Source: a virus
Lineage: Duplodnaviria > Heunggongvirae > Uroviricota > Caudoviricetes
Length of the DNA stretch: 50,213 nucleotides
Virus record (IMG/VR): IMGVR_UViG_2939521961_000003
Direction: 5' to 3' (one strand)
Below, piece by piece: positions 15,001-18,000 of the stretch; the first letter of the stretch is position 1, and the number at the start of each line of letters is the position of its first letter. The position numbers were made by a program.

Positions 15001-18000
15001 GCCTACATGGGATGCCTTGGATGGGGGAGTGCTTATTTCTATGGATGGGGTACTTCTTTTTACTACGGCTTCCCATGGTGGATTGTAGGTGCAGGTGTTG
15101 ATGATGTTGCCAGAAGTTTATTTTTTGCAGTTATCGTCATTGCTATATTTCTTATCGGTTGGGGTATTGGTGTTGTATTCTTTTTCGCAGTGAAAAGAAA
15201 ACATTCTATGCAAGAGCTAAATGTATTTCGCCTTTATTTTGCTGTGGAATTATTGTTTGTGCCGGCAATTATTGAGTTTTCTATATTGAGACAGAAGATT
15301 CAGGTACCTCTTTTGCTACTGTCAGCAGCGATTGCGCTGGCGGTTACAATTTCGATAAGATCTTATGGGCGATTTTTATCGGTATCATGCTTCTATGATA
15401 AGCCATTTATAAAAAAACATTTTTTTGAGATTGTGATGATTGCTTTTGTGGCATATTTTTGGCTTTTTTCATTTCTGACAGGATATTACAAACCACAGTT
15501 TAAGAAAGAATATGAAATGATTAATTATAATGATGGTTGGTATTATGTTCTTGCTCGTTATGATAATTGTCTGGTTTTGTCTACTTCTTTCAATGCAGGT
15601 AGTAAAAGGTTTGTCATTTATCAATCAGCACAAGATAAGAATCTTCAGGTTGATATTGTAAGGACCAGAATTTAATTGGCTGCATAAATAATATTTTAAG
15701 TTGCAAGTTGGCTATTCGTAGGAATAGAACCTTAGGCATGCTGAATGCGTTTTCTGAACATTGTTTTATAAACTGTGTCTGCTTGCTGTTGTGATCCTGC
15801 TTTTAGTGATGGTGATGATGGATTTCACCAGCAGGATAATGTTGGTACTGACTGATGGCGCTCTGGTCTGCGGCATTGTGGTATTGCTGTGGCCGATGAT
15901 GAAAGAACAGAATGAATAATTCTTGACTTTTTTGTTTACTGTTTATTAAAAAATCAACCGCATGGTGAATCCTCCTTGGAGGGGCTAAATGATCGAGTTT
16001 TAAGGGCACGTAGCGAGTTCTGTTTGATCATTGCAGAACTTAGCGGGAGGCGCCATGCGTACATCACTAGTGTTATTCCTTTTATCATTTTCCTTGTGAG
16101 TTCTGGCTGCGCATTGCGCAGCCTTTTTTTTATGACCTGCCACTGGCAGATGGTCATCCTGTGATTTGATTCCGCTTCCGGCTTTTTAACTCTGTTCCTC
16201 TACACGGGAGAAATTCGATGTCGATTAAACATTACGATGTTGTCAGGGCGGCGTCGCCGTCAGACCTTGCGGAAAAGCTGACACACAAACTGAAAGAGGG
16301 CTGGCAGCCATACGGCGGACCGGTTGCCATTACGCCGTACACACTGATGCAGGCGGTGGCTATTGAAGGAGAGCCACAGGTCGGCCCTTCATCTGAGCCG
16401 GATTGGTACTACGTCATCGTACTGGCCGGGCAATCCAATGCCATGGCTTACGGTGAAGGGCTTACGGTGAAGGGCTTCCGCTGCCGGATTCATACGATGC
16501 TCCGGATCCGCGCATTAAACAGCTGGCGCGCCGCAGTACAGTGACGCCGGGCGGGGCTGCCTGCAGATATAACGATATTATTCCGGCTGACCACTGTCTG
16601 CATGATGTGCAGGATATGAGTACGCTGAATCATCCGAGGGCTGACCTGAGCAAAGGGCAGTACGGCTGTGTCGGCCAGGGTTTACATATTGCCAAAAAAC
16701 TGCTCCCGTATATCCCGAATAACGCGGGGATCCTGCTGGTACCATGCTGTCGTGGTGGTTCGGCATTTACCCAGGGCGCGGAGGGGACATTCAGCGAGTC
16801 CACGGGGGCCAGTCAGGATTCGGCACGCTGGGGGGTGGGCAAGCCGTTATATCAGGATCTGATTTCCCGCACAAAAGCGGCATTGCAGAAAAATCCCAAA
16901 AACGTTCTGCTGGCCGTCTGCTGGATGCAGGGTGAGTTTGACATGAGCGCCGCCACCCACGTACAGCAACCTGCGCTGTTTACAGCCATGCTGACACAGT
17001 TTCGTGCTGACCTCTCCGTGTTTAACGCGCAGTGCCATGGTGGCAGTGCTGCAGATGTGCCGTGGGTTTGTGGTGACACGACGTATTACTGGAAAAATAC
17101 ATACGCTACCCAGTACGACACCGTGTACGGCGGGTATAAAAACAGGGAGAGTGAGGGCGTTTATTTTGTGCCCTTCATGACAGACGGTAACGGCGTCAAT
17201 ACCGCCACTAACGCGCCGGCAGAAGATCCGGATATTCCGGCATCAGGATATTACGGTGCGGCATCGAGAACGAATGGAAACCAGGTATCATCAAACCGCC
17301 CGACACATTTCAGTTCATGGGCGCGCAGGAGCATTATTCCGGATCGTCTGGCAACCGCTATTCTGAACGCAGCCGGGCGCACCTCAGCCTTCATCAGTGG
17401 TAAGGCACCGGAAATCAAACCCTCGCCCGGCGGCAACACGCCATCGGGTCCGTTTGCAGATACGTCCGTTCGCACAATCTCCCTGCTGCCGGCAGCCGGA
17501 GAGGCTGCTGCGCAGGGCTGGAGCATTAAGGATGGCGGAATTCAGTTGTCAGATGGTGTATTTAAGATCACCAAGCAGAGCAATAAAACCTGGTCCCTGA
17601 CGCATCCGGTGGATGACGCAATTACCCTGCTGACACAGGGCGGCAGACTGACCTGTAAGTTCCGCCTGTCAGGCGCACTGACCAACAATCAGTTCGGGCT
17701 GGGGATTTATCTGTATACGGATGCTCCCGTTCCTGATGGTGTGGCGATGACGGGTACCGGTAATCCGTTCCTGATGTCGTACTTCACTCAGACCACTGAC
17801 GGCAGAGTGAATCTGATGCATCACAGGAAAGCCGGAAACACGAAGCTGGGGGAGTTCGGCGATTACGGTAACGACTGGCAGACGCTGGAGCTGGTGTTCA
17901 CCGCCGGCAGTGCCACGGTTACTCCGAAACTGAATGGAGTGGCTGGCCCGGCATTCCAGGTTATAAAAGACAGTCTGACACTGGGACTGAATGCGCTGAC

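What the first reader, a model, noticed from the sequence alone, without database searches (positions are those of the whole stretch)
16446..16473. A 14-bp tandem duplication frameshifts the nanS-p-like esterase gene
gcttacggtgaagg occurs twice back to back. Deleting one copy fuses the 16218 frame (DUF1737-like N-terminus, GQSN esterase motif) to the 16541 frame and gives a continuous protein of about 617 aa (... AMAYGEGLPLPDSYDAPDPRIKQLARRSTVTPGGAACRYN ...). A perfect tandem duplication can revert by slippage or recombination, so this could be a reversible off state rather than simple decay.
Basis: seen in the sequence. Interest (0 to 1): 0.5.

Follow-up and report, generated by a model that had tools for sequence, protein, structure and literature searches.

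The report
Frameshifting 14-bp duplication in prophage esterase
A 14-base stretch copied twice in a row breaks one of about ten redundant sialic-acid esterase genes in a decaying prophage of E. coli O26:H11 and its relatives; it is an ordinary pseudogene, already flagged in RefSeq, although related strains with one, two or three copies show that the repeat does occasionally change length.

Summary
Positions 16445-16477 are a perfect period-14 repeat (2.4 copies). Removing one unit gives a 1851-nt, 616-aa ORF with no internal stop and the NanS-p architecture DUF1737-SASA-DUF6645.

The exact one-copy allele, identical at every other base, is an intact gene in at least 15 complete E. coli genomes. 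The ancestral sequence has GGCTT at both ends of the duplicated unit, so this is a microhomology-mediated tandem duplication.

It is not an artefact. The two-copy junction is present in 81 of 5,426 complete genomes, all in one lineage (O26:H11, O111:H11, O103), at the same prophage next to ybhC. RefSeq already marks the gene 'frameshifted'.

The frameshift separates the nucleophile Ser73 from the catalytic His359. The prophage is defective (IS elements, deleted immunity and head genes). The gene has about ten homologous places per genome, and a sister lineage inactivated it independently.

The repeat does change length. One genome has three copies. A small ST21 clade (TW08637, CFSAN027343) has one copy on a flank that otherwise occurs only with two copies. 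I read that as a probable natural collapse (about 0.6), not proven.

Only one copy gives an open frame, and about 70 genomes keep two. This is mutation-level instability in a decaying gene, not a switch.

The parts
16218..18082 (+). nanS-p-type sialate O-acetylesterase pseudogene (1865 nt, which is the 1851-nt gene plus 14 nt)
   Evidence: The repaired ORF matches Pfam DUF1737 (aa 4-49), SASA (66-262) and DUF6645 (467-577). It matches PDB 3pt5 NanS/YjhS at E 5e-122 and 6yp6, the NanS-p C-terminal domain, at E 1e-29. RefSeq ECO26_RS04555 is annotated 'frameshifted'.
16445..16477 (+). Perfect 33-nt period-14 repeat. Unit copies are at 16446-16459 and 16460-16473. The 5-nt microhomology GGCTT lies at 16445, 16459 and 16473.
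   Evidence: One-copy alleles read ...ATGGCTTACGGTGAAGGGCTTCCG....
16218..16544 (+). Truncated product: 108 aa, made of 82 native residues (DUF1737 plus the first strand and GQSN) and 26 out-of-frame residues
   Evidence: The exact 108-aa sequence is seen on 258 public contigs, including BAI24181.1 of strain 11368.
16428..16439 (+). GQSN motif. Gln72/Ser73 correspond to the oxyanion Gln18 and nucleophile Ser19 of NanS. They lie 8 codons upstream of the frameshift.
   Evidence: Alignment to 3pt5; residue roles from PMC9063846; coordinates.
16541..18082 (+). Downstream frame (-1 relative to the start) that holds the rest of the SASA domain, including His359 (RPTHFSS, codons from 17297), and the lectin-like C-terminal domain. 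It is open from 16459.
16105..16131 (+). Terminator-like hairpin with a T8 run, 90 nt upstream of the start codon
   Evidence: a consensus scan only.
14058..14747 (+). Antiterminator Q of the same late operon. A promoter-like site lies at 14731-14759 and a terminator-like site at 14793-14814.
18530..19667 (+). Lysis cassette downstream: holin 18530-18736, endolysin 18736-19233, Rz 19230-19667. Flank markers 19322-3 and 19563 lie in Rz.
9177..10486 (-). IS3-family element joined directly to a truncated sieB. The immunity, O, P, ren and ninB-E genes are missing in this window.
   Evidence: compared.
25564..28016 (+). ISEc22 in the S49 head protease gene, with deletion of the head genes up to gene U
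   Evidence: The same junction is present in related strains with one or two copies.

Best explanation
One of about ten nanS-p paralogues was inactivated by a microhomology-mediated tandem duplication. It encodes a prophage-borne 9-O-acetyl-sialic-acid esterase and lies in the late operon of a defective lambdoid prophage at ybhC. Inferred step: replication slipped between two GGCTT pentamers 14 nt apart and copied the 14 nt between them. Shown: this puts the reading frame out by +2, so translation ends after 108 aa. The nucleophile Ser73 and oxyanion Gln72 are then on a different polypeptide frame from the catalytic His359 and the carbohydrate-binding C-terminal domain, so no active esterase is expected from this copy (inferred). 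Shown: the mutation arose once in the O26:H11 / O111:H11 / O103 clonal complex, after the prophage had already lost its head genes, and was inherited by 81 sequenced genomes. Inferred: it spread by drift or hitch-hiking, because the other paralogues cover the function. Shown: the two-unit repeat changes length now and then; one genome has three units. Inferred, at about 0.6: it collapsed back to one unit in the TW08637/CFSAN027343 clade, which restored an intact gene. This happens at the rate of rare mutations, not as a regulated or high-frequency switch.
For: - Repeat and repaired ORF.
- Family and catalytic residues.
- The exact ancestral allele is 100% identical over 1851 nt and annotated as an intact SASA esterase in 15 genomes.
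- In DEC9B the 8.8 kb around the site differ from the window only by the 14 nt and two SNPs.
- The two-copy junction is in 81 of 5,426 genomes, all chromosomal and all at this locus.
- The same prophage occurs in graded states of decay. DEC9B is intact with one copy. B1_2 has the O iteron deletion and ISEc22 without the head deletion, with one copy. 07_3337 has the head deletion with one copy. RM8385 has two copies. 11368 and the window have further deletions and IS elements.
- Redundancy: the gene query has 11 places in the 11368 chromosome. An intact paralogue is present in two-copy strains. All seven EDL933 and five O104:H4 nanS-p alleles gave active esterases (PMC8065619).
- Independent knock-out: a 1-nt deletion in 2013C-3277.
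- Instability: three copies in OY754853. Its 88-aa product is seen on 3 contigs.
- Candidate collapse: the flank variant 16014T occurs in at least 8 two-copy genomes and in the one-copy TW08637, CFSAN027343 and 99_0849. No one-copy intermediate haplotype exists in 5,426 genomes.
Against: - No read-level or expression data were available, so loss of function and absence of subclonal revertants are inferred, not measured.
- The direction of the TW08637 event is not settled. If 16014 is homoplastic, that clade could simply have kept the ancestral single copy.
- The 37-kb chromosomal flank has no informative SNP, and the tail region is a patchwork of conversions.
- Drift versus selection for loss cannot be told apart from these data.
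Confidence: 0.8

Rival explanations
1. Reversible contingency switch. The duplication is a heritable OFF state that collapses back to ON often enough for selection to use it, for example when O-acetylated sialic acids are the carbon source.
For: A perfect tandem repeat is a known substrate for slippage, and collapse is much faster than formation (about 1e-4 against 8e-7 for 55-92-bp duplications in S. pombe; PMC8639346). Alleles with one, two and three copies exist at this locus. The one-copy TW08637/CFSAN027343 clade carries 16014T and 19563T, which are otherwise found only with two copies.
Against: There was a single origin, with at most one collapse and one expansion among about 84 genomes. 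About 70 window-type genomes from three continents all have two copies. No genome has one copy with window-type flanks. Only n=1 is open; from three copies on a TGA lies in the repeat, so gaining a unit never restores the frame. There are two units of 14 nt, not a long tract. The prophage is defective and the function is redundant. The same gene was lost in another way in a sister lineage. The same paper found such duplications about 20 times less often in E. coli than in S. pombe.
Confidence: 0.08
2. The truncated products have a use of their own. The 108-aa DUF1737 fragment, or an internally initiated C-terminal fragment, has been kept for a new role.
For: In phage phi24B the DUF1737 domain of the homologous esterase is cleaved off after about residue 54 and decorates the capsid on its own (bioRxiv 10.64898/2026.04.10.717836). 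The 108-aa product keeps this domain whole. No further disabling mutation has accumulated in the downstream frame in most two-copy genomes.
Against: This prophage has lambda-type head genes and has lost them, so there is no capsid to decorate. The lack of further damage fits the recent origin: the allele is identical to the intact one apart from the 14 nt. No ribosome-binding site or start was examined or supported for the C-terminal part.
Confidence: 0.05
3. Recoding. A programmed -1 ribosomal frameshift or transcriptional slippage in the overlap restores a full-length protein with a 5-residue insertion.
For: The downstream frame is exactly -1 relative to the upstream one. It is open from 16459, which gives an 85-nt overlap.
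Against: There is no X XXY YYZ heptamer in any frame and no homopolymer run of 6 or more in 16218-16600. The one-copy ancestor needs no recoding.
Confidence: 0.02
4. Assembly or sequencing artefact.
For: None found.
Against: The junction is identical in 81 complete genomes from many laboratories and platforms, including the Sanger-era 11368 reference. The frameshift product is seen on 258 contigs.
Confidence: 0.01

Closest known systems
NanS-p, the prophage-encoded 9-O-acetyl-N-acetylneuraminate esterases of EHEC (z1466 of phage 933W; vb_24B_21/gp84 of phi24B) and chromosomal NanS/YjhS
   Same: The three-domain architecture is the same. The esterase core is strongly similar to the NanS structure 3pt5 (E 5e-122 over aa 60-379), with the catalytic Ser and His aligned. 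The C-terminal domain matches 6yp6. The position between Q and the lysis genes of a lambdoid prophage is the same, and there are many paralogues per genome.
   Different: This copy is not next to stx; a membrane protein and a DUF3927 gene take that place. It is interrupted by the 14-bp duplication, so it is a pseudogene rather than an active allele. The survey of NanS-p diversity that I read does not mention frameshifted or truncated alleles (PMC10462455).
Microhomology-mediated tandem duplications (MTDs) that frameshift a gene and collapse precisely (Dan et al. 2021, PMC8639346)
   Same: The duplication is head-to-tail and bounded by a short identical sequence (5 nt here, 5-8 nt there). It causes frameshift inactivation, and the wild-type sequence is regained only by exact loss of one unit. 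A higher-copy form also exists.
   Different: The unit is much shorter (14 nt against 55-92 nt), and the organism is E. coli, where such events were detected about 20-fold less often. The allele is fixed in a lineage rather than subclonal. The collapse is inferred from comparative data and was not measured.
Phase-variable contingency loci based on simple sequence repeats
   Same: A change in repeat number toggles the reading frame.
   Different: There are two units of 14 nt instead of a long tract of 1-7-nt units. Only one repeat number is ON. There is no sign of frequent switching among close relatives.
Pseudogene formation in cryptic lambdoid prophages of EHEC (IS insertion, deletion, frameshift)
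   Same: The same element carries IS3, IS600, ISEc22 and ISCro1, an ori-iteron deletion in O (in 11368), a truncated sieB and cII, and deleted head genes.
   Different: Nothing of substance. This is the category the finding belongs to.

Membership tests
NanS-p esterase | DUF1737 - SASA (SGNH type II) - lectin-like C-terminal domain | tested here: met
   Met in the repaired ORF: Pfam hits, and PDB 3pt5 and 6yp6.
NanS-p esterase | Catalytic Ser (GQSN) and His conserved | tested here: met
   Ser73/Gln72 and His359 align with NanS Ser19/Gln18 and His301. However, they lie in different frames in the window.
NanS-p esterase | Encoded in the late region of a lambdoid prophage between Q and the lysis genes | tested here: met
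NanS-p esterase | Uninterrupted ORF giving an active Neu5,9Ac2 esterase | tested here: not met
   There is a stop after 108 aa. Activity cannot be assayed with these tools.
Microhomology-mediated tandem duplication | Exact head-to-tail duplication with no spacer | tested here: met
Microhomology-mediated tandem duplication | Identical short sequence at both ends of the unit in the unduplicated allele | tested here: met
   GGCTT lies 14 nt apart in the one-copy alleles of DEC9B, B1_2, phage 434 and others.
Microhomology-mediated tandem duplication | Precise collapse back to the original sequence | tested here: inconclusive
   The TW08637/CFSAN027343 clade has one copy on a 16014T/19563T flank that is otherwise seen only with two copies. 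Ancestral retention with one homoplastic SNP is not excluded.
Phase-variable contingency locus | Long tract of many short units | tested here: not met
   Two units of 14 nt.
Phase-variable contingency locus | ON and OFF states intermixed among close relatives | tested here: not met
   80 genomes have two copies, one has three, and there is one candidate revertant clade. No one-copy allele has window-type flanks.
Phase-variable contingency locus | Heterogeneity of repeat number within one culture | not testable with these tools
   No read data are available.
Programmed -1 ribosomal frameshift | Slippery heptamer in the overlap of the two frames | tested here: not met
   None found in 16440-16545.

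The most novel reading that the evidence does not exclude
The 14-bp duplication works as a slow, one-way-resettable genetic toggle on a single nanS-p paralogue. Most of the lineage carries it OFF, and exact collapse, as in the O26:H11 ST21 clade of TW08637/CFSAN027343, is picked up by selection when extra esterase dosage pays. That would be a natural bacterial example of the reversible microhomology duplications described in fission yeast.
Probability: 0.08. Interest if true: 0.5.

Novelty: new member of a known kind. Interest (0 to 1): 0.22.

Why it matters
In itself it matters little. One of many redundant esterase genes in a dead prophage is broken, and RefSeq already says so.

Two things give it modest value. 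First, it is a clean, datable marker: a single origin nested among IS and deletion events, which could help subdivide the O26:H11 / O111:H11 / O103:H11 complex. It also means nanS-p copy counts in these pathogens should not include this locus as functional.

Second, the series of one, two and three copies, together with conversion patches from an intact paralogue, shows how short tandem duplications and paralogue gene conversion act on prophage genes over decades. If a core-genome tree confirms the one-copy ST21 clade as a revertant, it would be a documented natural collapse of a frameshifting tandem duplication.

Tried and rejected
- **Artefact:** rejected.
- **Recoding:** the scan for slippery heptamers and homopolymers found nothing.
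- **Revertant with window-type flanks:** I searched with a synthetic one-copy 3.7-kb query. No genome scored above B1_2, which has three flank mismatches.
- **Head-deletion junction as a marker:** I combined the irreversible ISEc22|U junction with the duplication junction in one query. The deletion turned out to be older than the duplication, because one-copy strains such as 07_3337 have it. It therefore cannot identify revertants.
- **Chromosomal flank:** I ranked genomes by a 25-kb flank of TW08637 and then compared 37-49 kb in four strains. There are only private SNPs and no informative site. My first reading of a shared SNP was wrong: the '3-mismatch' group is heterogeneous (ybhI SNP in 11368, modF SNP in DEC9B).
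- **Tail-gene blocks:** TW08637 looks like outgroups in two blocks, but the matches are imperfect (32/37 and 18/23) and it has four more private patches. These are conversion patches, not retained ancestry.
- **17386C and 17454C as lineage markers:** abandoned. 2010C_5028, a window-type two-copy strain, carries both, and an intact paralogue in the same genomes has exactly these bases.
- **A single conversion tract explaining both the collapse and 17386C in TW08637:** rejected for the paralogue I examined, which differs at about 50 sites between 16481 and 17066 that TW08637 lacks.
- **O-gene 'frameshift' as a conflicting character:** it is a 67-nt deletion between ori iterons, so it is likely to recur.
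- **Literature:** no paper mentions TW08637.
- **Not run:** structure prediction, the large protein-homology searches and RNA tools, because sequence-level matches were already decisive.
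Full report
**1. The observation**

The 14-mer GCTTACGGTGAAGG is at 16446-16459 and 16460-16473 and nowhere else in the window. The perfect period-14 run is 33 nt, 16445-16477, and reads GGCTT-ACGGTGAAG-GGCTT-ACGGTGAAG-GGCTT. Tandem Repeats Finder reports period 14, 2.4 copies, 100% matches and score 66. A chance run of 19 self-matches at a fixed offset has probability about 4e-12 per site (my arithmetic), so chance is excluded.

As the sequence stands, the frame that starts at ATG 16218 stops at 16544 after 108 aa. The frame that runs to 18082 is -1 relative to it.

**2. What the gene is**

- The repaired protein matches Pfam DUF1737 (aa 4-49), SASA (66-262) and DUF6645 (467-577).
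- It matches the solved structures of E. coli NanS/YjhS (3pt5, E 5e-122, aa 60-379) and the NanS-p C-terminal domain (6yp6, E 1e-29, aa 421-613).
- In NanS the catalytic residues are Ser19 and His301, with Gln18 in the oxyanion hole (PMC9063846). They align with Gln72/Ser73 (GQSN, nt 16428-16439) and His359 (RPTHFSS, from nt 17297).
- The duplication lies eight codons after the nucleophile. Ser73 therefore stays on the 108-aa fragment (82 native plus 26 out-of-frame residues), while His359 and the lectin-like domain are in the other frame. Loss of activity is inferred from this. It was not measured.

**3. Where it is**

The window matches E. coli O26:H11. The gene is 100% identical to strain 11368 and more than 30 other complete genomes. 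The window starts in ybhC and runs through a lambdoid prophage integrated there.

- **Gene order:** int, xis, early genes, nin region, an lpxR-like gene, Q (14058-14747), a membrane protein, a DUF3927 gene, the esterase, then holin, endolysin and Rz (18530-19667), then terminase and later genes. This is the position nanS-p has in Stx phages, but without stx.
- **State of the prophage:** RefSeq annotates ECO26_RS04555 as a 'frameshifted' pseudogene. In 11368 there is an IS600, a sieB'-'cII deletion that removes the repressor, a damaged O gene, an IS3 in the nin region, and ISEc22 in the head protease with loss of the head genes.
- **The window's own version is further reduced:** sieB' is joined directly to IS3, so cII, O, P, ren and ninB-E are gone. 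It carries IS600 twice and ISCro1 further right.
- **Signals:** a terminator-like hairpin with a T8 run sits 90 nt upstream of the gene.

**4. Origin of the duplication**

Phage 434 has a one-copy allele at 99%.
- In O26 strain DEC9B the same prophage sits at the same site. Over 8.8 kb around the gene it differs from the window by two SNPs and the 14 nt.
- In every one-copy allele the unit is bounded by GGCTT on both sides. This is the signature of a microhomology-mediated tandem duplication by slipped-strand mispairing. The mechanism is inferred, and the class is described in PMC8639346.

**5. Distribution**

A 43-nt query that can only seed on the novel junction hits 81 of 5,426 complete genomes. 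All hits are chromosomal and all are under this pseudogene. The strains are O26:H11, O111:H11 and O103 (RM8385). They include the old UK strain H19 and isolates from the USA and Japan. The 108-aa product is seen on 258 public contigs. An artefact is excluded.

The same prophage exists in graded states of decay:

| Strain(s) | State of the prophage | Copies |
|---|---|---|
| DEC9B, F2_407_2_2, 7_33_46A | Immunity, O and head genes intact | 1 |
| B1_2 | O iteron deletion; ISEc22 present, head genes kept | 1 |
| 07_3337 and many ST29-like strains | ISEc22 plus head-gene deletion | 1 |
| RM8385 | Head-gene deletion; immunity and O intact | 2 |
| 11368, the window | Further deletions and IS elements | 2 |

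The duplication therefore arose once, in a prophage that was already unable to make heads.

**6. Is it a switch?**

Evidence against a switch:

- Only n=1 gives an open frame. With three or more units a TGA inside the third unit stops frame 0 at codon 89.
- There is no slippery heptamer or homopolymer that could support recoding.
- About 70 window-type genomes all have two units.
- A synthetic 'revertant' query (one unit, window-type flanks, 3.7 kb) has no match better than B1_2, which differs at three flank sites.
- The gene query has 11 places in the 11368 chromosome, and an intact paralogue is present in two-copy strains.
- In EDL933 and O104:H4 all seven and five nanS-p alleles, respectively, encode active enzymes (PMC8065619), so one copy is dispensable (inferred).
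- A sister lineage lost the same gene differently. In 2013C-3277 a T is deleted in GGGGGGTGGG at gene position 605. Three further assemblies show the same 3686-nt footprint.

**7. The repeat does change length**

*Three copies.* NZ_OY754853.1 has three units (pseudogene 1879 nt), and its 88-aa product is seen on three contigs. This genome also has a 33-SNP patch at 16543-17066 whose sites largely coincide with differences to an intact paralogue examined in RM8385. This suggests gene conversion.

*One copy on a two-copy flank.* TW08637, CFSAN027343 and 99_0849 have one unit and an intact gene, WP_133394977.1. CFSAN027343 is strain 99.085, O26:H11, ST21, Argentina 1999 (PMC6667211). Their sizes suggest that CFSAN027343 and 99_0849 are one strain assembled twice.

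Flank haplotypes:

| Group | 16014 | Units | 19322-3 | 19563 |
|---|---|---|---|---|
| Outgroups (DEC9B, B1_2, 07_3337) | C | 1 | CG | G |
| H19 | C | 2 | CG | T |
| RM8385, 88-19539, 2013C-4538 | T | 2 | CG | T |
| Window, 11368 | C | 2 | GA | T |
| TW08637 clade | T | 1 | CG | T |

Five more genomes share the RM8385 haplotype (T, 2, CG, T). The TW08637 clade thus carries two derived flank states that otherwise occur only with two units. No one-copy intermediate haplotype exists in the collection.

Two further sites, 17386 and 17454, are not usable as markers. Both C states are those of the paralogue, and both also occur on a window-type two-copy background in 2010C_5028. Site 16014 lies where the paralogue is too divergent to donate, so I treat it as an ordinary SNP.

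**8. Weighing the TW08637 event**

- **History R:** one duplication, then 16014 C>T, then a collapse in the TW08637 clade.
- **History A:** the TW08637 clade keeps the ancestral single unit, and 16014 has changed twice.

Both need the same number of steps. An exact collapse of a tandem duplication is expected to be far more frequent than a specific point reversal (general knowledge; compare), which favours R. Against that, the chromosomal flank gives no informative site, and the tail region is a mosaic of conversion patches that cannot be polarised.

My estimates: collapse about 0.6, ancestral retention about 0.25, import by recombination or a second duplication about 0.15. Whichever holds, the events are rare: one formation, one expansion and at most one collapse in about 84 genomes.

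**9. Comparison with known systems**

- As a gene, it is a member of the NanS-p family by architecture, catalytic residues and location, but not a functional one (membership table).
- As a mutation, it fits microhomology-mediated tandem duplications, with a much shorter unit than the yeast cases.
- It fails the defining features of simple-sequence-repeat phase variation and of programmed frameshifting.
- In phage phi24B the DUF1737 domain of the homologous protein is cleaved off and decorates the capsid. The 108-aa product keeps that domain, but this prophage has no head genes left, so a structural role is unlikely.

**10. Verdict**

The finding is real, and its mechanics were correctly described. 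The gene is an ordinary, already annotated pseudogene in a decaying prophage. The 'reversible' idea holds only in the weak sense that the repeat can, and probably once did, collapse. Nothing points to a regulated or frequently used off state.

Noticed in passing
L008 (NZ_OY754853.1) 5779-7657, equivalent to window 16218-18082: The allele has three copies of the 14-mer and a 33-SNP patch at window-equivalent 16543-17066. The patch sites largely coincide with the differences to an intact nanS-p paralogue examined in RM8385, which suggests gene conversion between prophage paralogues next to the repeat.
   Followed up: partly
Window-equivalent 17386 and 17454; L010, L012, L021, L022: 17386C and 17454C are the bases of an intact paralogue in another prophage of the same genomes. 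They appear as a patch on two unrelated backgrounds: the one-copy TW08637 clade and the two-copy window-type strain 2010C_5028. They are conversion-prone and misleading as lineage markers.
   Followed up: yes
L023 (2013C-3277) 419-2268: This is an independent inactivation of the same gene in the one-copy lineage. A T is deleted at gene position 605 within GGGGGGTGGG, giving a stop at codon 210. Three other assemblies show the same 3686-nt footprint.
   Followed up: partly
L001 9695-10566 and L007 11008-11879 (the O gene, which is absent from the window): The 'frameshifted' replication gene O of 11368, B1_2 and 2010C_5028 lacks 67 nt between ori iterons (ATCCCTCAAAAC repeats). RM8385 and TW08637 have it intact, so this character conflicts with the other markers and has probably recurred or been repaired.
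   Followed up: partly
Window about 9176/9177: In the window a truncated sieB is joined directly to an IS3-family element, and cII, O, P, ren and ninB-ninE are missing. This deletion is larger than the one in the 11368 reference, so the window comes from a different, more decayed O26-type strain. It also has a private SNP, 13793G.
   Followed up: partly
NZ_CP074879.1 (2010C_5028), second place not located: The 43-nt two-copy junction query hits two places in this chromosome, although the ybhC-prophage allele has only two units. The duplication may have been copied into another paralogue.
   Followed up: no
Window 25564-28016, 40780-42049, 45084-47782, 47803-49066: ISEc22, two IS600 copies and ISCro1 are present. 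By comparison with TW08637, the IS600 at about 40780 lies in the 3' end of a tail-fibre C-terminal domain gene, just upstream of the effector genes nleH and cif.
   Followed up: partly
Window about 12620-13580 (- strand): A gene for an LpxR-family lipid A deacylase lies between a truncated antiterminator remnant and Q. It is cargo carried by this prophage in all the variants examined.
   Followed up: no
Window 40200-40290 and 8111-8194: There is a 45-nt tandem repeat (2 copies, 84% matches) with a Gly-X-Y-like coding pattern in the tail-fibre region. A degenerate GCTTCT x14 array lies in the TolA-like pseudogene of the early region.
   Followed up: no
L010 (TW08637), window-equivalent 32554-40468: The tail genes of TW08637 differ from RM8385 and the window in eight short blocks (114 sites). 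Some resemble other strains' alleles imperfectly and four are unique. This indicates frequent patchy recombination among resident lambdoid prophages.
   Followed up: partly
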